A DNA stretch of 32,000 bases, taken from the NCBI GenBank assembly GCA_008080745.1, contig SHMX01000006.1, positions 60,001 to 92,000 on the forward strand, given 5' to 3'. The notes under the pieces are model-generated. The model saw only the letters and a list, made by a program, of their open reading frames with translations, had not been told where the DNA came from and did no database searches. Both the position numbers and the translations under genes were made by a program. This document shows positions 19,264 through 30,617 of the stretch, in pieces. The stretch's first letter is position 1. Each line of letters begins with the position of its first letter. Origin of the DNA: Candidatus Thorarchaeota archaeon. Lineage in GTDB: Archaea > Asgardarchaeota > Thorarchaeia > Thorarchaeales > Thorarchaeaceae.

Positions 19264-20544
19264 ATGGTAGCAGCACAACTATTGGTATTGGCAATTTTCA
19301 TTGGATGCTTAGTGGTGATTATATCTGAGAAGATTAGTGAAACCGCTACAGCATTATTTGCTATGTGTCTAGCCGGGGGCGTATTAGTTGTCTATGAAAT
19401 TTGTTCCTTTAGAGATATGATTATGTTGATTGAATGGGATACAATAATCTTTATTGCTGCTATGCTGATTGTTGTAGCAATATCCGGTTCGAGTGGGATG
19501 TTTCAGTACATATCTCTGATGATAATACGTGGTACTGCAGGAGAACCAAAGCGAACTTACCTTTCTTTTATGATATTCGTCTATATCATGTCTTTATTCT
19601 TCGACCCACTTCCAACCATGCTGATTATGGGTGCATTTACGGTGCAGGTCTGTAGGGCGATGGAGATTGATTTTAGACCATTTCTAATATCAGAGGTCAT
19701 TGTTTCTAACTTTGCTTCTATTCCATCAGTGGTTGGTTCAGTACCAAACCTAGTGATTGTTGTTTGGGCAGGAATAGATGTTGGGCAGATGTTCATCATC
19801 CTTATGCCTTTGTCTATCATCATGCTAGTTGTAACTCTTCCCATTCTACTCTGGTATTATGAGGATACGTTAGTCCCAGAGGAGGAACACGACTCATCCC
19901 TGCTTTTACTCATTCAGCCAGGCATCATGATCAAGTCACGTCATGATTTCTATTTATCTGCAATTGGAATGGCAGCTCTCGTTTTGGGTTTTGTAATAGG
20001 ACCCGCACTCGGAGTTGAAGCTAGCTTTATTGCTATGATTGTAGCTTCAGCTATGCTGGTGTTTTCAAATGAAAGAGCAAAGAGTTTACTTCGGAGGTTG
20101 TCATGGGATACGCTATTTTTCTTAATAGCAATGTTTGGATTAGTAGTTGCCTTGGAGAGAGTTGGCCTTATAGAAGGACTGATTGGTGGAGTGTCATATC
20201 TGACAGGAGGGAATATATTTCTCGCTATGGCATTTTTAATCTGGATCCCCGGCTTAGCATTATCAATCATAGACAATATACCTGTAGCTGCAGTACTAGC
20301 ACCATTGGCTCAGGAATATGGAGCAGTAAATGCAGTAGTGCCTTTATCATTGATAGCAGGTTCGAATATTGGAGGATATATCATACCCTTTGGAGACGCT
20401 CCAAATATGATTGCAGCATCTCTTGCTGCTGACGAGGGAATGCCCATTACTTTTAAGGAATTCACCAAAATCGCGTTTCCACTTGGCCTCTTACATTTGA
20501 TCATGGTTACAATTTACACGTTTATAGTAGCTCTCTTTGTATAG
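19264..20544 (+). CDS. ArsB/NhaD/SLC13 (ion-transporter superfamily) permease
   Basis: ~12 hydrophobic segments, IEWDTIIF, GSVPNL, LSWDTLFF, SIIDNIP, GSNIGG...GDAPN. Confidence 0.88.
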   Translation: MVAAQLLVLAIFIGCLVVIISEKISETATALFAMCLAGGVLVVYEICSFRDMIMLIEWDTIIFIAAMLIVVAISGSSGMFQYISLMIIRGTAGEPKRTYLSFMIFVYIMSLFFDPLPTMLIMGAFTVQVCRAMEIDFRPFLISEVIVSNFASIPSVVGSVPNLVIVVWAGIDVGQMFIILMPLSIIMLVVTLPILLWYYEDTLVPEEEHDSSLLLLIQPGIMIKSRHDFYLSAIGMAALVLGFVIGPALGVEASFIAMIVASAMLVFSNERAKSLLRRLSWDTLFFLIAMFGLVVALERVGLIEGLIGGVSYLTGGNIFLAMAFLIWIPGLALSIIDNIPVAAVLAPLAQEYGAVNAVVPLSLIAGSNIGGYIIPFGDAPNMIAASLAADEGMPITFKEFTKIAFPLGLLHLIMVTIYTFIVALFV

Positions 20545-22419: not shown

Positions 22420-22920
22420 ATGGTGAAAAAAGAATATTATATACCCATAATTGTTATCATGCTTATCCTTCTGACATTGTTAGTTTTTTCATTTTTTAAT
22501 CTGGATATCAGTATCTTGATAACTGCTGTTTTGTTTGTAATTGTAATTGGCATATTTGCCTTTTTAAAAGGCGTAGGTAGTTTTTTCGCTAGTTCTATAG
22601 TAGCAAAACTTCCAAATGTAACGTTATTTCCAGAAACCATTCCAATTAGAGAAAGGAAAAAATATGAAATGCTAAGAGTTGTTAGGAACCCACAAACAGG
22701 AAAGGAAATTGTAATCGGGGGCAACAGGGATACAACATATCGAGCAGCTATGATCAGAAACTGGGATTTTGTAAAAATTGCTAAGGATTCCCCTTGGATA
22801 CTACGAGATGAGATCGGTAACGATATAACTGACTCAAATCTGGAAGATTATGATGGAATAGTGACCATAGAACATCTTGATATACCTCAGCATGGTTACA
22901 GAGATGATTCTACAGATTAA
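22420..22920 (+). CDS. 2-TM membrane protein with a C-terminal ubiquitin-like domain (paralog 1)
   Basis: Two N-terminal hydrophobic helices; domain LRVVRNPQTGKEIVIGG..TTY..A...W.F......W.L.D..GNDIT...LEDYDGIV. CDS is solid; the fold call is inferred. Confidence 0.7.
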   Translation: MVKKEYYIPIIVIMLILLTLLVFSFFNLDISILITAVLFVIVIGIFAFLKGVGSFFASSIVAKLPNVTLFPETIPIRERKKYEMLRVVRNPQTGKEIVIGGNRDTTYRAAMIRNWDFVKIAKDSPWILRDEIGNDITDSNLEDYDGIVTIEHLDIPQHGYRDDSTD

Positions 22921-22989: not shown

Positions 22990-23463
22990 GTGACAGCGAT
23001 GTCTAAGCAAATCCAAGGAAGACGAATTATTCTTGGAATAACCATTTTCTTTGTGATGATTTTCTCATCAGCTATTCTCATCTATTTTGGTCCAGTAATC
23101 TCCTTTCTTTTTGCTTTTTTCTCGATGATTTGTTTTGTCAGAGGGCTTCTTTCCATAGACGTGATGCAAAGAGGATTATCTAGAATGAATATAGAAGGAG
23201 CGTATATCAGCCGAATTGGTATTCTAGGAAGCCCATCTTCTGCTTCAATGATTAATCGTATTATCATTAATCCAATTGACGAAACACAGTATACAATAAC
23301 TGGTCGTTCTGATATGACCTTTCGTGAATCATGTCTTTATGACTGGCCATTTCAAAATATTCGCATCGATTCCAAATGGTATATTTTCAGTGAGAATGAA
23401 ACGGATATCAGCAACCTTCCCTTATCCCGTTATGATGGAATAGCTTGGATAAGAACAGAGTAA
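22990..23463 (+). CDS. 2-TM membrane protein with the same C-terminal domain (paralog 2, most diverged)
   Basis: NP...Y.ITG..DMTF..SC..DWPF..I....W......DIS...LSRYDGIAWI. Confidence 0.7.
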   Translation: MTAMSKQIQGRRIILGITIFFVMIFSSAILIYFGPVISFLFAFFSMICFVRGLLSIDVMQRGLSRMNIEGAYISRIGILGSPSSASMINRIIINPIDETQYTITGRSDMTFRESCLYDWPFQNIRIDSKWYIFSENETDISNLPLSRYDGIAWIRTE

Positions 23464-23510
23464 ATGAAAAACAAAAAGCTGTTAAACAATCACGAGCTTG
23501 TGATACTACC

Positions 23511-23978
23511 ATGACAGATCAATTCATTGAAACACTGGCGAAGGGGCTCAAAGCTAAATATACTCACGTGGATCCTATCCGAGCCCTACAAGCTATCAGT
23601 ATAGATAAGGTCGTGGAAAAACCCAATCCCCAAACACGTTCTATCTTTGAGCTGCTTCACCACGTAGTACTATGGCAAAATCTCACTATTGAGGCTCTAC
23701 AGGGACATGATGTAATTTGGCCGAAAAAAGGAGAAGACTGGCCGAAATCAAACGCGGTCAGCAAAGAGGGATGGAAAGAACTTGTCGAAGAATTCACTCA
23801 GGGCTTGGAACGGGCAGAGATTGTCGCAGAAATGCTAGAGTCTGAAACACCCATTCCTGCATGGGAAAATATGTCAGCGTCAAATGGATTACTTGTATTG
23901 GTGCAACATAACTCATATCATATGGGGCAGATTGTTCTTCTTAGGCAGGTTCTAGGTATCTGGCCTCCAGAAAGTTGA
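23511..23978 (+). CDS. DinB/YfiT-family protein
   Basis: SIFELLHHV..W and HNSYHMGQI. Start trimmed to ATG 23511 to avoid overlap with the upstream gene. Confidence 0.85.
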   Translation: MTDQFIETLAKGLKAKYTHVDPIRALQAISIDKVVEKPNPQTRSIFELLHHVVLWQNLTIEALQGHDVIWPKKGEDWPKSNAVSKEGWKELVEEFTQGLERAEIVAEMLESETPIPAWENMSASNGLLVLVQHNSYHMGQIVLLRQVLGIWPPES

Positions 23979-23979
23979 T

Positions 23980-26346
23980 TCAATCGGCCTTCTCGACACG
24001 AACCAATACCGAATTGAAACCCGGTGTGTGTCCGAATGCGGTGTGTTTATCATCGGTAAGGTAGTTCATGTTGCCGTTTTTGTTCCACCATCCATCAGAG
24101 CTCCAGATGATTCGATGATCTAAATCCTCGTTTAGTCGTAGTTCGATGTTCTCAACTCTTCCACGAGGGGACTCGATATTGACCAAATCACCTTCCTGAA
24201 GTCCATGCAAATTAGCTGTTGAAGGATGCATCCAAATCCAAGCACGTTTCTCCTCCTTGCTTTTAGGCGGCATCCGTATTGGTTTCACAACTACGTCGAA
24301 GGGACAGATATCCAGCTCACATTCTCTACAACCTATGCATTGTTTTGAGTCCCATTTCGGAATAAGAAGCCCGGTAATTTCTTTAGGAATGGAAAGAGGA
24401 CGACTTGATACATCAACAGCAAGCGAACTGACCAACTTTCCCAGATGTTTTCTTATAGGCGCATGTGTATCTTCAATTCCATCTTCTTTCAATTTCTCAG
24501 CAGTGGGACTAATGAGAGATATAGCTTCATCTGGACATTCTTGAACACATTTTTGACACGTCGTACAATTCTGAAAGCTTGTTACATCCCCACCGACTTC
24601 AACAGTGGTATACTGTGAATGGAGGCGTTCTCGCAATCTTCCTGTGATCATGATGAGGGGGAATTTTCGATATAAGAGTGGAGTTGAGATCGGACTTTCT
24701 GCGGGTTCTTCATGAAACGGTAATGGATCAATGCCCATTCTTTTTAGAGCCGGCGAATATAACTCGACCTTTCCAGTTTCGGTTCTAAATTTTTTATCAG
24801 CAAAAGGAATCGCGACTTCATTGGTTCTAACACCTTCAGGATGATCTATCAAATCTTCAAGTGAGATGTTACTACATTGTACGCTACCTAGGGCTAACCT
24901 AATTGTATCGATCTCAGTCAAATCAAAATATTCCCCAAGTTCTAACCGTTCAGCAATACCCCGCCATATAGCTAATTCGTGTCGTGCTTCTCCAATTGGT
25001 TCAATTATTTTAGGTGCATATTGTACAATTCGATGGAGTTCACTATGAACGAGATTATGGTGTTCAAATATTAATGTGGCTGGTAAAACAATATCACATT
25101 CCTTTGCAGTGTCAGTCATTTCCAAATCGATACAGACTTTGAATGGTATCTTTTCGAAGGCGGCTTTAGTCTTGGAAGTATTTGGCCACTGAGTGATAGG
25201 ACTAGCTGCCTGAATAACAAATACCTCAAGTGGGCTTTTCTCGTGACTAAGAATGAATTCTGGAATGTATGTACCGGAAGGAACTATCGGTATAACACTT
25301 TCAGGTAGTATATCTTGAAGTGTGATAGCAGCACTATTGAAAGGGCTAAAATCAGAAGAAAGGTATTGAAATCCTCCACCTGAAACACCGAGATAACCGC
25401 ATATTGCTAGGAGACTATGGACTGCTCTTGCAGTATGACTACCATTTGTATAATGATTCATACCCGCAGGTGCAGTCATAATAAGTGATGGTCCATGAGT
25501 TGCAAATGTAACAGCTAATTGCTCGATGGTATTCGGATCAACCCAAGTAATCTCACTGACTCGTTTTCGGTCATACGTTTTTACTCGCTCACAATACTCC
25601 GTAAAACCATGAACATATTTCTCTACGAATTTTTTGTCATAGAGACCTCGATCAATGATGATATTCGCCATTCCTAGAGCGAGAGCTGCATCAGTCCCAG
25701 GTCTAATCGTGGTATAGATGTCAGCCATGTTTGCATGTGGTGTTTTTCTTGGATCAATGACTATGAGTTTAGCACCATGCTCAATTGCTTCCTGAATTAA
25801 TCTTTTAGAATGAAGACCAGATTCGAACTTGTTTGTGCCCCAGATTACAATACATCGAGAATTTACCAAGTCACTCAGTTCATGAGGGGGAAATGGACCC
25901 ACGCTAAAACGTGCCCCTTCATATGCACCCTCAAAACAAATCTCTACAATCCCAGGAATCATTCTGCATCCAAACACATTACTGAATCGTGATGCGATTC
26001 GCGGAGCCATTCCATCGTTTCCTGACCCTGAATATATACCCACAGCTTGAGGCCCGTATTCCTCTTTTGCCGTTCTCATTCTCTCTGCAATCTCGTCTAA
26101 TGCTTCGTCCCACGATATTCTCTTGAATGAGCCATCATCTTTTTTCTTCATAGGATATCTGAGTCGGTCTTCATAGTATGTACGTAAAACATGTGAATAG
26201 CCTTTGGGACAGGCTCTACCTAATGTATAGGGATGATCAGGATCTCCCTCTAATCGAGTAATTATACCATTTTCGACATGAATAAGAAAGGCACAGATAT
26301 CTGGGCAATTCAATGCACAAGCAGTGGAGAATATTTCTTTGGTCAT
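23980..26346 (-). CDS. Cytoplasmic DMSO-reductase-family molybdopterin oxidoreductase with an N-terminal [4Fe-4S] and an inserted 2x[4Fe-4S] ferredoxin
   Basis: CALNCPDIC..GDPDHP...ACPKG, WDEALD, probable metal-ligand Cys in EICF, IWGTN, VIDPR, IRPGTD, DIVLPA, TGKVEL, LIMITGR..LHSQ; no Tat signal. Start taken as ATG 26346. Confidence 0.93.
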   Translation of the reverse strand: MTKEIFSTACALNCPDICAFLIHVENGIITRLEGDPDHPYTLGRACPKGYSHVLRTYYEDRLRYPMKKKDDGSFKRISWDEALDEIAERMRTAKEEYGPQAVGIYSGSGNDGMAPRIASRFSNVFGCRMIPGIVEICFEGAYEGARFSVGPFPPHELSDLVNSRCIVIWGTNKFESGLHSKRLIQEAIEHGAKLIVIDPRKTPHANMADIYTTIRPGTDAALALGMANIIIDRGLYDKKFVEKYVHGFTEYCERVKTYDRKRVSEITWVDPNTIEQLAVTFATHGPSLIMTAPAGMNHYTNGSHTARAVHSLLAICGYLGVSGGGFQYLSSDFSPFNSAAITLQDILPESVIPIVPSGTYIPEFILSHEKSPLEVFVIQAASPITQWPNTSKTKAAFEKIPFKVCIDLEMTDTAKECDIVLPATLIFEHHNLVHSELHRIVQYAPKIIEPIGEARHELAIWRGIAERLELGEYFDLTEIDTIRLALGSVQCSNISLEDLIDHPEGVRTNEVAIPFADKKFRTETGKVELYSPALKRMGIDPLPFHEEPAESPISTPLLYRKFPLIMITGRLRERLHSQYTTVEVGGDVTSFQNCTTCQKCVQECPDEAISLISPTAEKLKEDGIEDTHAPIRKHLGKLVSSLAVDVSSRPLSIPKEITGLLIPKWDSKQCIGCRECELDICPFDVVVKPIRMPPKSKEEKRAWIWMHPSTANLHGLQEGDLVNIESPRGRVENIELRLNEDLDHRIIWSSDGWWNKNGNMNYLTDDKHTAFGHTPGFNSVLVRVEKAD

Positions 26347-26586
26347 TACCCATTTGTCATATATTACTATCAATAACTCTTACTGTATATTATAATCACA
26401 TCGCAGGAGTCCTAATGAGATTAGAGAAATTAGACGAATGAGTCGATAATCCAATATGGATAAAAATGAAAAAGAAAAAGTATTTTCTTACATTATTTTT
26501 AGTTTCATATCAGGAAGAACCAAGTTCCAAATGACTTTGAGAAGATAAGCTTAATAGATTTCATTTGGATAGATTTATGATTTCAA

Positions 26587-27132
26587 ATGATTGATGTTTC
26601 AAAAAGATTCAAGGGATTTATCCTATTCCTTGTCATTCTTTTTTCCTTGCTCATTATAATGACACTGATAGATCCAACCAGTTATTTTACATCTTTATTT
26701 TCAACAGGAACAATAATTGTAACCATCTTTCTTATTTTTGAATTCATGCTTACGTTAAGTATCGAGGCACAGCCAGAGGGTGCATCCAATGCACATATCT
26801 ATGCAGAACACGAAAAGAAACCGGTAGTCAGGAGGAAGCCAGCCGAAATCCTCAGGGTTGTCAAAGACCCATATAATGGTGAAGAAATACTCATTGGTGG
26901 AAAAAAGACAACCACTTATGGAGAGGCATGCCGCGAAGATTGGGATTTCAAAGGCATCGATAAGAAAGCATCTTGGATTTTGCGTGATGATAAAGGAAAT
27001 GACATAACTAATATGCATCTAGCTGACTATGATGGAATAGTGGTGATTGAACTTCTTGAATTAGAAGGGCACAAGACTTCAGACAGAGAAAAAGAGGATT
27101 CCAAGCATATGGGCGTGGAATATTACGATTAA
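26587..27132 (+). CDS. 2-TM membrane protein with a C-terminal ubiquitin-like domain (paralog 3)
   Basis: ILRVVKDPYNGEEILIGG..TTYGEAC..DWDF......WILRDDKGNDITNMHLADYDGIVVI. Confidence 0.72.
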   Translation: MIDVSKRFKGFILFLVILFSLLIIMTLIDPTSYFTSLFSTGTIIVTIFLIFEFMLTLSIEAQPEGASNAHIYAEHEKKPVVRRKPAEILRVVKDPYNGEEILIGGKKTTTYGEACREDWDFKGIDKKASWILRDDKGNDITNMHLADYDGIVVIELLELEGHKTSDREKEDSKHMGVEYYD

Positions 27133-27308: not shown

Positions 27309-30300
27309 TTGACTGATTTACACCCGATACAAATTGTGGAATATTCTGATGATTTAGCCAAAAAAGTTGCTAATATGTGGAACACCTGGGATGAGCTTTG
27401 GATAGGCGGATTCACTCAGGGAGTACCATACACCGAAGAACGTGTACAGGAACAAATGGCAACAATGCAGAGAATTTCTCAACTCATAGCGATTGATGAT
27501 GAAACAGGAGAAGCTATTGGGTCTTGCTCGGTACTGCAACACTGGCAAGATGACGAAGCTGCATATGTTGGATTGTTAGGAGTGTCACCTTCTGCACTTA
27601 ATAAGAAGGTAGGAAAACGTCTACTTCTTCGTGCTGTACAGATTGCTATTGAGAGAGGTTACACACGAATTGATCTGCATACATGGGCAGGGAACCTCAG
27701 GGCTCTCCCGCTTTACAAGAAAATTGGTCTCATGTGGGATCCAGAAGGTAATGGTGTTTCTATGCAGGACTATATTCCAGGAATTCTAAAGCATCAGCTA
27801 ACAGCTCCGTTTTTCATCGGAAAAGAAGAGTCTGCATGGTATGATCTACAAAAGAGAGAGATTTCTCAAGCTCCCGACGATATGTCTGAGAATAATATGG
27901 CAGTATTCAAATATAGATTTGAAGATGAAGAGAACTTTATTGACGTAATAGTTGATAGAATAGGGAGGGGGATAACTGGTTTATCACGAGAGTTAGATGG
28001 AGAATCTCTTAGTGTTCAGGCATACCCATCCCATCAAGACATCATCTGTGGGATTCCAGCAAAATATACTATTGAGATACAAAATGGTATGAAAATGAAT
28101 CTTGACCTTACAGTCACGCTTGATGCCTTTGAAGGCATTGTATTAGATGACCTGACAACTGAAACTATTATCAAAACAGGTACCACTTTCAAATGGGAAG
28201 TTCCATTCACAGTGGACTCAAGTGCGCCCTTACACAGAATAGACCACAAGAGTCCATCAATAACAGCATCCATTAATTTAGGTGGAGTAAGCTCAAAACT
28301 AGTAACTGGACTAAGGATAAATTCGATTGCGGACATTTCTACAGAATGGGGTGACTGTAAGCTAGCTCCAGGCGGAACAGCTGAATTACCAATTAACATC
28401 AGAAATCAATACAAAGCATTTAGTGGTAAGTTAGTCTTAACTAGCGATACTGAACAGATATCAGTAATTCCCTCGACTAGCGAAATCGAATTAGATTCGA
28501 AATCTTTTGGAGGACTAGTTGCAGAAATCAGTGCGAAACGAGATACTGATACCAAATCGTATAACATTTGGGCATATTTTGATGTTGAAACAGAAAGTTT
28601 CGATGGTGAACCAATCAAACTTCGGACAAGGAAATTCAAAATACCGATTTACTGCATTGGTGATGGGATAGCGAGAGTAGGAGAGATTGAGAAGGAACGG
28701 TTGGTTCGCGTTGTTTCTGAAACATTTCATGCAACTGCAAATCGTGAAGGGGGAAGATGCACCTTTGTAACACCTCAAGGAGCACGTAGGGCAAATCCCT
28801 CAGTTGATTTTCGTGTAGGACCACCATTTGGTATCGATCCATTTAGATTCGCTGAAAGAGAGATTAAAACTACCTACAAGACAGATTCAACTACTCTCTC
28901 AATTAGCGCAAAACATCCAGGGAGACCTCTATTACTTGAAACGGAAATTGTTTTTCCTAAAGGAAATGAAATAATCCGTGCAGATTTTTGGGTCACCAAT
29001 ACAAGTGAAGAACCGCACACATTTCAAGCTCGCATGTATGGACCGGATGGAGGAATCTCACTTGGTTCAATTGGTACGATGTTTATCCCTTTGAAGTCGG
29101 GCCTCATTGAGGGACCAATAACAAGCTCATTCACAACAAATCAAGCGCTTCCCACAAATCCAAATGAGTGGGCGGAAGATTGGGTAGCTCAATATGATGG
29201 AAGAGGAGTTACTGGTCAATTCTGGAGTTCGAAAGGAACAAAAAAGGTTCAGATTGTTTTTGGTCGTATAGGTAAATTGGAGTATGAGGATATTACTCTA
29301 CAACCTAGTGAAAAGCGAAGGATAAGCCAAATCTGGAATGTGCTATCTGCTGAACATTGGACTGATATTCATCAAGCTTGGAAGAGGACAATCAAAGGAC
29401 AATACGAACTCCCATACGAAGTTGAAGACCCCGAAGATTCCAAATATATTCTCGAATTGAAAGCAGAAACCGTAGTAACTCGTCCAAAACAGACAGTCAA
29501 GGTAGATGTAACTTTTTCCAATCATAGCAATGTAGTTATTCCAGGCGATTTAGTGATTTGGGCTCCTGACGGGTATAAAATGACGTCAGTATCAATTGAT
29601 TCTGCTGAGATAACAGATGGCAAATGCACAATACAAGACTTCATTCCAGAAGGAAATCAAGACCTTACCATCATGCTAGAACCAACCAAAGATCTACCAA
29701 ATGGATTCTGCTTGTCAGAAGGTAAGATGTTATACAAATCAGTCAGTGAAACCCACGGAGTATATCAAATCATACAACTCGGTATGAGTAACGCTTCAGT
29801 GGAGATTGCAAAAAGTACAGAGAGTAACAGGGAAGTTTACACAATTGATAATGGTCTTATATCTTTCAAGGTGTCACCTGATTTTGGTGGATGCATGACT
29901 TCTCTGAAAAACAGTAATTCCACCGAACTACTAGTATCAGCATTCCCTGAGGCAAGTCCAAAAATTTTTCTTGAGAATTATTTCGGAGGAGTTCAACCTG
30001 TATTCTGGACAGACCATCCAGATGATGGTCTAGTAAAAGCAAAGACAAATCTAGAGGATATGGAAATTCAAGTCACTGAGATTAGCGATTTATGGAAAGG
30101 AGTAGAACTATCTTGGACTGCAGAAGTTCAGAAATTCCTACGAGGATTAGATTTCAAAATACAATATCTCACTGCTCCCGGATGTCCAATGATTATTATC
30201 TCATCCACAATTAACAATGACACTTCAGCACCCTTCACACTAAGCCCCTCTTTTTTCATTGATAATGCATTCAATGGAGACCTATCCAATATGGTTATTG

Positions 30301-30617
30301 AATCAGTCTTCGGTCATAAGAGAAGTACATCTAGAGTAGGAGATATTCCGATTTCATACATATCTGAAAATAATATCATATGGACCCGAAAGGAAGATTC
30401 TCAAAAGACTCCTGAGGGATTAGGACTGATGATTCCATACGAGCAAAAGAAGGGTCTGTTTATTGGTATTCAAGGATTGGTCCTGACTGGTTTCACTGAA
30501 CGAAAAATATACCTTAAGCCAGGAGAGAAGAAGAATATCATCTTTGCGCTTCTTGTAGATCCGCCTAGTCTAGAGTTAATGGAGAAACTGAGAGGTCTTA
30601 TTTTAGGCCTGCTTTAG
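27309..30617 (+). CDS. Large (1102 aa) protein: N-terminal GNAT followed by ~900 aa of beta-rich domains
   Basis: YVGLLGVSP....KKVGKRLL and LHTWAGNLRALPLYKKIG; C-terminal YTIDNGLISFKVSPDFGG..SL resembles the start of a galactose-mutarotase-like sandwich. Confidence 0.82.
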   Translation: MTDLHPIQIVEYSDDLAKKVANMWNTWDELWIGGFTQGVPYTEERVQEQMATMQRISQLIAIDDETGEAIGSCSVLQHWQDDEAAYVGLLGVSPSALNKKVGKRLLLRAVQIAIERGYTRIDLHTWAGNLRALPLYKKIGLMWDPEGNGVSMQDYIPGILKHQLTAPFFIGKEESAWYDLQKREISQAPDDMSENNMAVFKYRFEDEENFIDVIVDRIGRGITGLSRELDGESLSVQAYPSHQDIICGIPAKYTIEIQNGMKMNLDLTVTLDAFEGIVLDDLTTETIIKTGTTFKWEVPFTVDSSAPLHRIDHKSPSITASINLGGVSSKLVTGLRINSIADISTEWGDCKLAPGGTAELPINIRNQYKAFSGKLVLTSDTEQISVIPSTSEIELDSKSFGGLVAEISAKRDTDTKSYNIWAYFDVETESFDGEPIKLRTRKFKIPIYCIGDGIARVGEIEKERLVRVVSETFHATANREGGRCTFVTPQGARRANPSVDFRVGPPFGIDPFRFAEREIKTTYKTDSTTLSISAKHPGRPLLLETEIVFPKGNEIIRADFWVTNTSEEPHTFQARMYGPDGGISLGSIGTMFIPLKSGLIEGPITSSFTTNQALPTNPNEWAEDWVAQYDGRGVTGQFWSSKGTKKVQIVFGRIGKLEYEDITLQPSEKRRISQIWNVLSAEHWTDIHQAWKRTIKGQYELPYEVEDPEDSKYILELKAETVVTRPKQTVKVDVTFSNHSNVVIPGDLVIWAPDGYKMTSVSIDSAEITDGKCTIQDFIPEGNQDLTIMLEPTKDLPNGFCLSEGKMLYKSVSETHGVYQIIQLGMSNASVEIAKSTESNREVYTIDNGLISFKVSPDFGGCMTSLKNSNSTELLVSAFPEASPKIFLENYFGGVQPVFWTDHPDDGLVKAKTNLEDMEIQVTEISDLWKGVELSWTAEVQKFLRGLDFKIQYLTAPGCPMIIISSTINNDTSAPFTLSPSFFIDNAFNGDLSNMVIESVFGHKRSTSRVGDIPISYISENNIIWTRKEDSQKTPEGLGLMIPYEQKKGLFIGIQGLVLTGFTERKIYLKPGEKKNIIFALLVDPPSLELMEKLRGLILGLL

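What the first reader, a model, noticed from the sequence alone, without database searches (positions are those of the whole stretch)
24244..24609. 2x[4Fe-4S] ferredoxin inserted inside domain IV of a molybdopterin oxidoreductase
Seen: between RERLHSQY and WIWMHP, normally ~15 aa apart, lie 123 aa containing CTTCQKCVQECP and CIGCRECELDICP, themselves ~64 aa apart. Established: DMSO-reductase-family enzymes usually take extra Fe-S clusters on a beta subunit or a terminal fusion. No beta subunit, membrane anchor or Tat signal is nearby. Inference: a one-chain enzyme with a three-cluster wire entering from the cofactor-capping domain; substrate unknown.
Basis: partly seen in the sequence, partly recalled or inferred. 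Interest (0 to 1): 0.65.

Follow-up and report, generated by a model that had tools for sequence, protein, structure and literature searches.

The report
Molybdoenzyme with a built-in ferredoxin
A Thorarchaeota (Asgard archaeon) molybdenum/tungsten enzyme carries a two-cluster ferredoxin module inserted into a loop of its last domain; only one archaeal family has this layout, and it probably gives a single protein both the catalyst and its electron wire.

Summary
The gene is window 23980-26346 on the minus strand (788 aa). It encodes a cytoplasmic Mo/W-bisPGD (MopB/DMSO-reductase superfamily) enzyme. A 123-residue stretch (aa 580-702) replaces the 14-residue first loop of domain IV and holds CxxCxxCxxxCP and CxxCxxCxxxxCP, 64 residues apart.

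- **Conservation:** all eight cysteines are invariant in about 119 orthologs of 64-81% identity. So are the FS0 cysteines, Lys48, the metal-ligand Cys137 and the dinucleotide-binding motifs.
- **Origin:** the insert-bearing proteins form one clade (support 1.0) nested among insert-less enzymes of 650-720 aa.
- **Distribution:** a HMMER scan of 1.84 billion representatives and a scan of 185,579 species genomes found the insert only in Thorarchaeota-type Asgard MAGs. It is in 12 of 16 genera sampled in one family.
- **Relatives:** some carry ferredoxin-type domains as N- or C-terminal fusions, none internally.
- **Closest solved structure:** acetylene hydratase, but its substrate-pocket residues are not kept.
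- **Context:** no beta subunit, membrane anchor or Tat signal.

The substrate is unknown.

Side finding: this 98%-complete genome has no detectable MoaA, MoaC, MoaE or MoeA, yet keeps seven pterin-dependent enzymes.

The scan had already flagged orthologs of this gene in other Thorarchaeota genomes. I class it as a new variant of a known kind.

The parts
23980..26346 (-). Whole CDS, 788 aa plus TGA stop: stand-alone cytoplasmic Mo/W-bisPGD (MopB) enzyme with an internal ferredoxin module
   Evidence: Pfam Molybdop_Fe4S4 7-57, Molybdopterin 61-467 (173.6 bits), Molydop_binding 696-780. AF2 pLDDT 94, pTM 0.91. VIA Z 37-38 to MopB structures.
26209..26319 (-). FS0 [4Fe-4S] motif: C10-x3-C14-x3-C18-x27-C46
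   Evidence: the four Cys are invariant in orthologs and at least 90% conserved in distant relatives.
26203..26205 (-). Lys48, aligned with acetylene hydratase Lys48. That this Lys links FS0 to the pterin is from my own knowledge of the family.
   Evidence: Alignment. Invariant in 55/55 insert-bearing sequences and K or R in 86/92 others.
25936..25938 (-). Cys137, predicted Mo/W ligand
   Evidence: Aligned with the tungsten ligand Cys141 of acetylene hydratase. Invariant in all 147 aligned sequences.
24610..24660 (-). First strand of domain IV (PLIMITGRLRERLHSQY) before the insert, with the conserved HS pair
   Evidence: H576 and S577 invariant in the insert group. This stretch corresponds to the first ~24 positions of the Molydop_binding profile, which Pfam does not match after the insert.
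24241..24609 (-). Inserted module, aa 580-702 (123 aa; net about +109 aa over the 14-aa loop of relatives)
   Evidence: pLDDT 78-92 in the full model.
24532..24567 (-). Cluster motif 1, CTTCQKCVQECP (aa 594-605)
   Evidence: four Cys invariant.
24340..24531 (-). 64-aa linker between the motifs, with two predicted helices. It is the most variable part of the protein and varies in length between orthologs.
   Evidence: conservation 0.43-0.59; helices 616-620, 630-640; 13-aa extra stretch in L010.
24301..24339 (-). Cluster motif 2, CIGCRECELDICP (aa 670-682), with spacing CxxCxxCxxxxCP
   Evidence: four Cys invariant.
23983..24240 (-). Remainder of domain IV (aa 703-788)
   Evidence: Molydop_binding profile 25-109 at aa 696-780, 62.4 bits.
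23445..23978 (+). DinB-superfamily protein, convergent and abutting. It is the most conserved immediate neighbour. No functional link is shown.
   Evidence: DinB_2 3.2e-10; adjacent in 10 of 17 orthologous loci.

Best explanation
The gene encodes a soluble, cytoplasmic, single-subunit Mo- or W-bisPGD oxidoreductase with a Cys metal ligand. It belongs to a large uncharacterised clade whose nearest solved member is acetylene hydratase. At the base of one Thorarchaeota family lineage, a module of about 109 aa binding two [4Fe-4S] clusters was inserted into the first surface loop of the cofactor-capping domain IV. I propose that the module works as a tethered ferredoxin, replacing the separate or terminally fused Fe-S subunit of related enzymes. 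In this reading, electrons from a low-potential cytoplasmic donor (soluble ferredoxin or a ferredoxin-linked complex) pass through the two inserted clusters to FS0, then through Lys48 and the proximal pterin to the metal held by Cys137, or in the reverse direction.

Shown here: the architecture, its conservation, its single origin, its restricted distribution, the intact cofactor-binding residues, and the lack of partner genes.

Inferred: that both motifs bind clusters, that the clusters lie within electron-transfer distance of FS0, and that the enzyme is redox-active.

The substrate is not identified. My guess is that it is an electron-sink reductase for a small oxyanion, S/N-oxide or sulfur compound. 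It is not a formate dehydrogenase and not an acetylene hydratase.
For: - Domain map and insert position.
- Eight invariant Cys in about 119 orthologs; invariant FS0 Cys, K48, C137, DPR198-200, PGTD216-219 and HS576-577.
- High-confidence full-length model (pLDDT 94, pTM 0.91). The insert scores 78-92 in context but only 57 when folded alone, which suggests it packs on the enzyme body.
- The in-context secondary structure around each motif is strand, Cys motif with helix, strand, as in dicluster ferredoxins.
- MopB fold: Z 37-38 with about 650 of 788 residues aligned, leaving the insert as extra.
- Monophyly (support 1.0, stem 0.74), nested in insert-less enzymes.
- Only one full-length 50%-identity cluster with the insert among 1.84 billion representatives. 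All next hits are at most 38% identical, 640-730 aa long, and their matches stop at about residue 580.
- Full matches to the insert only in Thorarchaeota-type MAGs among 185,579 species genomes.
- Full-length orthologs only in the window's own family among 301 Asgard genomes.
- Relatives meet the same need with terminal Fer4_11 fusions.
- No beta subunit or anchor nearby and no Tat signal.
- Conserved synteny brings no electron-transfer partner.
Against: - No cluster-to-cluster distance could be measured, so the insert might sit away from FS0.
- Motif 2 has a non-canonical x4 spacing, and the 64-residue linker is far longer than in classical dicluster ferredoxins.
- Pfam Fer4 scores are marginal (best 27.9 against a cut-off of 27).
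- The insert folded alone gives a poor model, so its ferredoxin fold was not confirmed by a structure search.
- The closest solved relative, acetylene hydratase, is a non-redox enzyme.
- The genome shows no MoaA, MoaC, MoaE or MoeA, so how or whether the pterin cofactor is supplied is unexplained. The same puzzle applies to its five AORs and its Fwd enzyme.
Confidence: 0.6

Rival explanations
1. The enzyme is a non-redox hydratase-type catalyst like acetylene hydratase. The inserted clusters would serve only to keep the metal and FS0 reduced (reductive activation or redox poising), not to carry turnover electrons.
For: Acetylene hydratase is the best solved match by sequence (E 4.3e-64) and among the best by fold (Z 37.1, 28% identity). 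It shares the Cys ligand and Lys48. From my own knowledge, it needs a strong reductant to be active although its reaction is not redox.
Against: By the alignment, acetylene hydratase pocket residues are not kept: I113 aligns with G109, I142 with F138, W179 with L178. The Asp that follows its second FS0 Cys is Pro15 here, with Asp16 one position later. Acetylene hydratase manages with FS0 alone. Identity is only 24-28%.
Confidence: 0.15
2. The insert is a docking or electron-entry module that plugs the enzyme into a larger complex such as an Hdr/MvhD-type electron-bifurcating complex, rather than a receiver for free ferredoxin.
For: The surface-exposed variable linker could be an interaction surface.
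Against: Not reproduced here. Single-sequence and profile searches of 5.8 billion proteins in the 70-254 aa range returned only fragments of this same enzyme. The window's own genome has no paralog of the insert better than E 0.008. No Hdr or Mvh gene appears in the window or in 17 orthologous loci. The only cross-motif similarity found was a weak one to PsrB-type beta subunits (27% identity).
Confidence: 0.1
3. The inserted clusters are structural or sensory, for example an oxygen or redox sensor or a lid stabiliser, and are not part of the electron path.
For: Domain IV is the lid that closes over the cofactor last during maturation (PMC4159696). A cluster-bearing lid could couple Fe-S status to cofactor loading.
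Against: Two complete ferredoxin-type motifs with all eight Cys invariant are typical of electron relays. Relatives add relay-type Fer4_11 domains at their termini.
Confidence: 0.05
4. The insertion is an assembly or annotation artefact (a chimera, or two genes read as one).
For: None found.
Against: It is one open frame with domain IV sequence on both sides of the insert. The same architecture occurs in at least 37 species-level MAG records and more than 100 protein clusters from NCBI, JGI, ENA and Logan.
Confidence: 0.01

Closest known systems
Acetylene hydratase of Pelobacter acetylenicus (PDB 2e7z)
   Same: Cytoplasmic, monomeric MopB enzyme without a Tat signal. It has an N-terminal FS0 cluster, a Cys metal ligand (Cys141 aligned with Cys137) and Lys48. 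It is the best PDB sequence match (E 4.3e-64); fold Z 37.1, rmsd 2.8, 651 residues aligned.
   Different: Acetylene hydratase has no insert in domain IV and no clusters beyond FS0. Identity is only 24-28%. Its FS0 motif is Cx2Cx3C with Asp13 after the second Cys; here it is Cx3Cx3C followed by Pro15-Asp16. Pocket residues I113, I142 and W179 correspond to G109, F138 and L178.
Uncharacterised 650-720-aa cytoplasmic 'molybdopterin-containing oxidoreductase family proteins' (for example P0123, the Bathyarchaeota cluster of P0134, Thermosediminibacter oceani WP_013276933)
   Same: They are the phylogenetic neighbourhood of this protein: 30-38% identity, the same Cx3Cx3C FS0 motif, Cys ligand and domain order.
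   Different: All have the short 14-residue loop where this protein has the 123-residue module. None has been characterised.
MopB enzymes with terminally fused or separate Fe-S subunits (P0139 with C-terminal Fer4_11, P0225 with N-terminal Fer4_11; FdnGH, PsrAB, ArrAB and DmsAB-type alpha-beta pairs)
   Same: The same apparent need is met: extra [4Fe-4S] clusters added to a MopB catalytic subunit (PDB entries).
   Different: In those enzymes the clusters sit on a separate chain or a terminal domain of the four-cluster Fer4_11 type. Here a two-motif module is spliced inside domain IV. It matches no Fer4_11 profile and resembles PsrB-type proteins only weakly (27% identity).
FwdB/FwdD of formylmethanofuran dehydrogenase (also present in this genome)
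   Same: It shows that domain IV of MopB enzymes is a separable module: FwdD is domain IV as its own chain. It needs the same cofactor type.
   Different: In Fwd the domain is split off rather than carrying an insert. From my own knowledge, its electron wire is on separate polyferredoxin subunits.

Membership tests
Mo/W-bisPGD enzymes (MopB / DMSO reductase superfamily) | Four-domain fold with Molybdopterin (PF00384) and Molydop_binding (PF01568) domains | tested here: met
   PF00384 scores 173.6 bits and PF01568 62.4 bits, both over their cut-offs. Foldseek probability is 1.00 and TM about 0.8 on the target. VIA Z 37-38.
Mo/W-bisPGD enzymes (MopB / DMSO reductase superfamily) | N-terminal FS0 cysteine motif (PF04879) | tested here: met
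   PF04879 scores 45 bits. C10, C14, C18 and C46 are invariant.
Mo/W-bisPGD enzymes (MopB / DMSO reductase superfamily) | Metal-ligand residue (Cys/Sec/Ser/Asp) at the conserved position, and dinucleotide-binding motifs | tested here: met
   C137 aligns with acetylene hydratase Cys141 and is invariant in 147 sequences. DPR198-200, PGTD216-219 and HS576-577 are invariant in the insert group.
Mo/W-bisPGD enzymes (MopB / DMSO reductase superfamily) | Actually binds Mo or W bis-pyranopterin guanine dinucleotide | not testable with these tools
   This needs metal and cofactor analysis. Caveat: no MoaA, MoaC, MoaE or MoeA was found in this genome.
Acetylene hydratase | Asp directly after the second FS0 cysteine (Asp13) | tested here: inconclusive
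   HMMER aligns Asp13 with Ala11. By motif register, the residue after the second Cys is Pro15 and an invariant Asp16 follows. The 3D position could not be checked.
Acetylene hydratase | Hydrophobic substrate ring (Ile113, Ile142, Trp179 and others; residue list from my own knowledge) | tested here: not met
   In the alignment these positions are G109, F138 and L178 (coordinates checked).
Formate dehydrogenase alpha (FdhF/FdhA) | Curated NCBIfam equivalog score, and His directly after the Sec/Cys ligand | tested here: not met
   TIGR01591 scores 286.9 bits against a cut-off of 666. Cys137 is followed by an invariant Phe138.
Other named MopB enzymes (NasC, PhsA, DmsA/YnfE, NapA, ArrA, TorA, NarG) | Curated NCBIfam cut-off | tested here: not met
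   All scores are far below the cut-offs, for example NasC 233 of 1100, PhsA 217 of 694, DmsA 215 of 778.
Bacterial-type 2x[4Fe-4S] ferredoxin domain (Pfam Fer4 clan) | Two CxxCxxCxxxCP motifs and a profile match | tested here: met
   Motif 1 is canonical. Motif 2 is CxxCxxCxxxxCP. Fer4_9 scores 27.9 bits (cut-off 27) and Fer4_7 covers profile 1-52 over aa 593-685. All eight Cys are invariant. The match is marginal and the spacing atypical.
Bacterial-type 2x[4Fe-4S] ferredoxin domain (Pfam Fer4 clan) | (beta-alpha-beta)2 ferredoxin fold with two cubane sites | tested here: inconclusive
   The in-context secondary structure fits. The insert folded alone gave pLDDT 57, so no meaningful fold search was possible, and coordinates are not exposed.
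Four-cluster beta subunits of complex iron-sulfur molybdoenzymes (Fer4_11; PsrB/DmsB/FdnH type) | Four cysteine groups and a PF13247 match | tested here: not met
   Only two groups are present and there is no PF13247 hit. There is weak BLASTP similarity to a PsrB-like protein (27% identity, E 3e-8 pairwise), with the linker lying opposite its second Cys group.

The most novel reading that the evidence does not exclude
The inserted clusters do not simply extend FS0. Because domain IV caps both pterins, the module might sit on the distal-pterin side and give the metal centre a second, independent electron path. That would be a two-wire Mo/W enzyme able to split or merge electron pairs. A second unexcluded novelty is that the enzyme works in genera with no pterin-synthesis genes, which would imply cofactor or precursor salvage in archaea.
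Probability: 0.08. Interest if true: 0.85.

Novelty: new variant of a known kind. Interest (0 to 1): 0.52.

Why it matters
Every Mo/W-bisPGD enzyme I found in the structure and sequence searches here receives extra iron-sulfur clusters on a separate subunit or a terminal fusion. This is a third solution: a cluster-bearing module spliced into the lid domain that closes over the cofactor.

If the three-cluster wire holds, this would be a minimal one-chain catalyst-plus-wire. That makes it an attractive subject for structural and electrochemical study.

It is the only full-length MopB enzyme in this genome; the one other MopB-family gene is the shorter FwdB subunit. It is a lineage marker of Thorarchaeota, so it bears on what electron sinks or sources these relatives of eukaryotes use.

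Published surveys counted a few acetylene-hydratase-like homologs in Asgard MAGs (PMC10100899), but the passages I read do not mention this architecture.

The side finding points to possible cofactor auxotrophy or salvage in uncultured archaea: seven pterin-dependent enzymes with no detectable MoaA, MoaC, MoaE or MoeA, a pattern shared by whole genera.

Tried and rejected
- **Cluster distances:** the AF2 model is returned without coordinates (one search shows only FASTA files in /data), so the decisive distance test could not be run.
- **Insert folded alone:** with a 15-sequence alignment the model was poor (pLDDT 57), so I did not use it for a fold search.
- **VIA wide search with the full model:** it listed only MopB-type and generic Rossmann-like or barrel matches. 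No ferredoxin row appeared for the insert, which is expected for a 788-residue query and is not evidence against a ferredoxin fold.
- **Origin of the insert:** single-sequence and profile searches for free-standing relatives (70-254 aa) returned only fragments of this same enzyme. The window's own genome has no paralog.
I could not reproduce it.
- **ESM Atlas leads:** two bacterial clusters of 788-805 aa carry MopB plus Fer4 domains (Thermodesulfobacteriota). The tool gives no sequences, so I could not tell whether their Fer4 is terminal or internal. An analogous insertion in a distant MopB subfamily is therefore not excluded.
- **The look-up of encoding contigs:** I took gene context from the genome search and the fetch from genomes instead.
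- **Literature:** searches for an internal ferredoxin insertion in bisPGD enzymes found nothing. One query was rejected for syntax.
- **Neighbours as functional clues:** the DinB-like protein, the 1102-aa GNAT protein and an IT-superfamily permease with weak ArsB/MamN/DASS matches are syntenic within the family, but none could be tied to the enzyme.
- **Cofactor-less MopB (like NuoG):** considered because Moco synthesis genes are missing. Rejected as the leading view because every cofactor-contacting motif is invariant, and because the same genome keeps five AORs and FwdABD, which also need pterin.
Full report
**1. What is in the sequence**

The flagged interval lies on the minus strand, inside one long open frame, window 23980-26373. 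The likely start is the ATG at 26346, giving 788 aa. Residues 580-702 (window 24241-24609) lie between RERLHSQY and WIWMHP. They contain CTTCQKCVQECP (aa 594-605) and CIGCRECELDICP (aa 670-682), 64 residues apart.

Pfam gives this domain map:
- Molybdop_Fe4S4 at 7-57.
- Molybdopterin at 61-467 (173.6 bits).
- Molydop_binding at 696-780, but only from profile position 25 onward.
- Several Fer4-clan hits at 588-609 and 662-685. Fer4_7 spans 593-685 as one dicluster domain.

The missing first part of the domain IV profile is the strand PLIMITGRLRERLHSQY, just before the insert. One detail differs: the second motif has four residues, not three, before its last Cys.

**2. It is an insertion, and it is conserved**

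I aligned 55 orthologs with 92 distant relatives (A1). Every relative without the module has a 14-residue loop between the HS pair and the (I/V)HP strand, where this protein has 123 residues. The net gain is about 109 aa.

In 120 homologs of 64-81% identity, the eight insert cysteines are present in 118-119 sequences, which is every sequence that covers them. In the insert-bearing group these residues are also invariant:
- FS0 cysteines C10, C14, C18 and C46.
- Lys48.
- Cys137 and Phe138.
- DPR198-200 and PGTD216-219.
- HS576-577.

The 64-residue linker is the least conserved part of the protein (0.43-0.59 per-column identity). It varies in length; L010 has 13 extra residues. This pattern fits a surface module whose cluster sites are under strict selection.

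**3. Fold**

AlphaFold2 with A1 gave pLDDT 94 and pTM 0.91, with 78-92 across the insert.
- Foldseek and VIA-align place the protein firmly in the MopB fold. The best hits are FdhH, acetylene hydratase, Nap, ForC and Fdh-N, at Z 37-38 and rmsd about 2.5 Å. About 635-657 of 788 residues align, which leaves roughly the size of the insert unmatched.
- No solved MopB chain found has a counterpart of the insert.
- Around each motif the model shows strand, Cys motif with a short helix, then strand. Two helices lie in the linker. This is what a dicluster ferredoxin with a long inter-motif excursion would look like.
- Folded alone, the insert gave only pLDDT 57. I read this as dependence on packing against the enzyme body. 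It also means the ferredoxin fold was not independently confirmed.

**4. Distribution and origin**

- *Representative library.* A full HMMER scan of 1.84 billion 50%-identity representatives found one full-length cluster with the insert (P0108) and two fragments. The next hits are at most 38% identical and 640-730 aa long, and their matches end at about query residue 580.
- *Asgard genomes.* Among 301 genomes, full-length orthologs (64-81% identity) occur only in the window's own family. They are in 12 of its 16 sampled genera. Other families have only insert-less relatives of about 35% identity.
- *Species genomes.* A scan of 185,579 genomes with the insert alignment returned 37 full matches. 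All are in MAGs labelled Thorarchaeota or Promethearchaeota, or in unnamed archaeal MAGs. Bacterial hits were single-motif matches.
- *Two longer weak hits.* L080 and L083 are PsrB-like four-cluster subunits next to NrfD anchors. Pairwise BLASTP puts insert motif 1 on the first Cys group of the L080 protein, the linker opposite its second group, and motif 2 on its third group (27% identity). That is a hint of a beta-subunit origin and no more.
- *Free-standing relatives.* None of 70-254 aa was found by sequence or by profile. The window's own genome has no paralog.
- *Tree.* A FastTree phylogeny on 664 shared columns, with insert columns removed by gap trimming, recovers the 55 insert-bearing sequences as one clade. 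Support is 1.0 and the stem is long (0.74). The clade is nested in insert-less enzymes (support 0.997), and the insert-less P0123 is its weakly supported sister. The tree was rooted at midpoint, and all 165 sequences were kept.
- *Conclusion.* One insertion event at the base of this lineage is the simplest reading.

**5. Context**

- The protein starts MTKEIFSTAC, so the FS0 motif begins at residue 10. There is no room for a Tat signal.
- The flanking genes carry no Fer4_11, NrfD, cytochrome or flavoprotein domain.
- In 17 orthologous loci, the recurring neighbours are a convergent DinB-superfamily gene (10 of 17), a divergent 1102-aa protein with an N-terminal GNAT domain (10 of 17), and an IT-superfamily permease a few kb away (9 of 17). 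None is an electron-transfer protein.
- The genome has only one other MopB-family gene, FwdB in a FwdA-B-D cluster.
- Its Fer4_11 genes lie elsewhere, three of them beside AOR genes.
- Close and distant relatives show the alternative solution of terminal Fe-S fusions: P0139 at the C-terminus, P0225 at the N-terminus, and a paralog in the same archaeal family (L100) with a C-terminal partial Fer4_11.

**6. What it is not**

- All named NCBIfam equivalogs score far below their cut-offs.
- The Cys ligand is followed by Phe, not His, so this is not a formate dehydrogenase.
- Acetylene hydratase is the best solved match (E 4.3e-64). In that alignment its pocket residues I113, I142 and W179 correspond to G109, F138 and L178.
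- Acetylene hydratase Asp13 has no equivalent at the same register. Pro15 follows the second Cys, and an invariant Asp16 comes one position later.
- I therefore do not file it under acetylene hydratase. It belongs to a large uncharacterised Cys-ligand clade with a Cx3Cx3C FS0 motif.

**7. Mechanism proposed**

*Shown.* This is a one-chain MopB enzyme with intact cofactor-contact residues, plus a conserved two-motif Fe-S module in the lid domain.

*Inferred.* The module binds two [4Fe-4S] clusters and acts as a tethered ferredoxin. It would relay electrons between a cytoplasmic low-potential partner and FS0, then through Lys48 and the proximal pterin to the metal.

*Rivals.*
- Reductive activation of a non-redox catalyst.
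- Docking into a larger complex.
- A sensory or lid-stabilising role.
- Less likely but most interesting: a second electron path on the distal-pterin side.

Domain IV is the only contiguous domain of these enzymes. It is thought to close over the cofactor as the last maturation step (PMC4159696). A cluster-bearing lid may therefore also matter for assembly order.

**8. Side finding: missing cofactor-synthesis genes**

In this genome (98% complete, 19 contigs), Pfam searches found no MoaA C-terminal domain, no MoaC, no MoaE and no MoeA N-domain. The same searches ring in 11 of 14 control genomes. No WtpA was found either.

Across the family, MoaC and MoeA occur together in about a third of the genomes:
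- MoaC in 24 of 76.
- MoeA in 31 of 81.

Both are missing from whole genera, including several that keep this enzyme; genomes G299, G069, G197, G128, G257 and G179 are 95-99% complete.

Yet the window's genome encodes five AOR-family enzymes, FwdABD and this protein. Two explanations remain open: the pterin cofactor or a precursor is obtained from outside, or it is made by an unrecognised route. This does not single out the present gene, but it limits how firmly one can say the enzyme is cofactor-loaded.

**9. Prior knowledge**

- Database records call these proteins only 'molybdopterin-dependent oxidoreductase' or 'anaerobic selenocysteine-containing dehydrogenase'.
- A superfamily survey reports seven acetylene-hydratase-family homologs in Asgard MAGs. 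The passages I read do not mention an insert (PMC10100899).
- My text searches found no description of an internal ferredoxin insertion in a bisPGD enzyme. The library is incomplete, so this is absence of evidence only.
- The scan itself has already flagged orthologs of this gene in other Thorarchaeota genomes. One earlier claim, an Hdr/MvhD-type origin of the insert, was not reproduced here.

**10. Verdict**

- I class it as a new variant of a known kind, confined to one Asgard family.
- Interest is moderate: it is a new way of wiring a well-known enzyme family and readily testable, but it has no known substrate and no measured geometry.

Noticed in passing
whole genome G000 (window = C6:60001-92000) and its family: No MoaA C-domain, MoaC, MoaE, MoeA_N or WtpA was detectable in this 98%-complete genome. 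Yet it has five AOR-family genes, FwdABD and the MopB-ferredoxin enzyme. In the family, MoaC and MoeA co-occur in only about a third of genomes and are missing from whole genera. This suggests pterin-cofactor auxotrophy or salvage, or an unknown synthesis route.
   Followed up: partly
window 22420-22920, 22990-23463 and 26587-27132 (+): Three paralogous small proteins flank the enzyme gene. Each has N-terminal transmembrane helices and a shared C-terminal domain with no Pfam match. Relatives recur near the ortholog in 5-6 of 17 related loci.
   Followed up: no
window 27309-30617 (+): A 1102-aa protein whose only recognisable part is an N-terminal GNAT acetyltransferase domain (aa 29-140). It is divergently placed and conserved next to the enzyme gene in 10 of 17 loci, at only 35-37% identity outside the genus.
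   Followed up: no
window 23445-23978 (+): A DinB-superfamily protein with a weak hit to mycothiol S-transferase. It abuts the 3' end of the enzyme gene, is convergent, and is adjacent in 10 of 17 orthologous loci. No functional link is shown.
   Followed up: partly
G152:C3:430949-431428 (not fetched as its own locus; lies within L035): A second, partial copy of the enzyme gene lies about 1.5 kb from the intact ortholog. It is 66% identical to aa 103-262 and has two in-frame TGA codons. It is probably a decaying duplicate.
   Followed up: no
L100:876-3323 (G281, same archaeal family): An insert-less paralog of 815 aa (31% identity) with an intact domain IV followed by a C-terminal extension that partly matches Fer4_11. 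The same family therefore also uses the terminal-fusion solution.
   Followed up: partly
G000:C5:63696-64654, C5:74539-75512 and C1:92677-93655: Three of the genome's five AOR genes have a small (162-179 aa) Fer4_11 protein gene directly beside them. In this organism, dedicated Fe-S partners seem usual for tungsten-type enzymes.
   Followed up: no
window 19264-20544 (+): An IT-superfamily anion permease (CitMHS 2e-52, with weak ArsB, MamN and DASS matches below their cut-offs). It lies within 8 kb of the ortholog in 9 of 17 loci.
   Followed up: no
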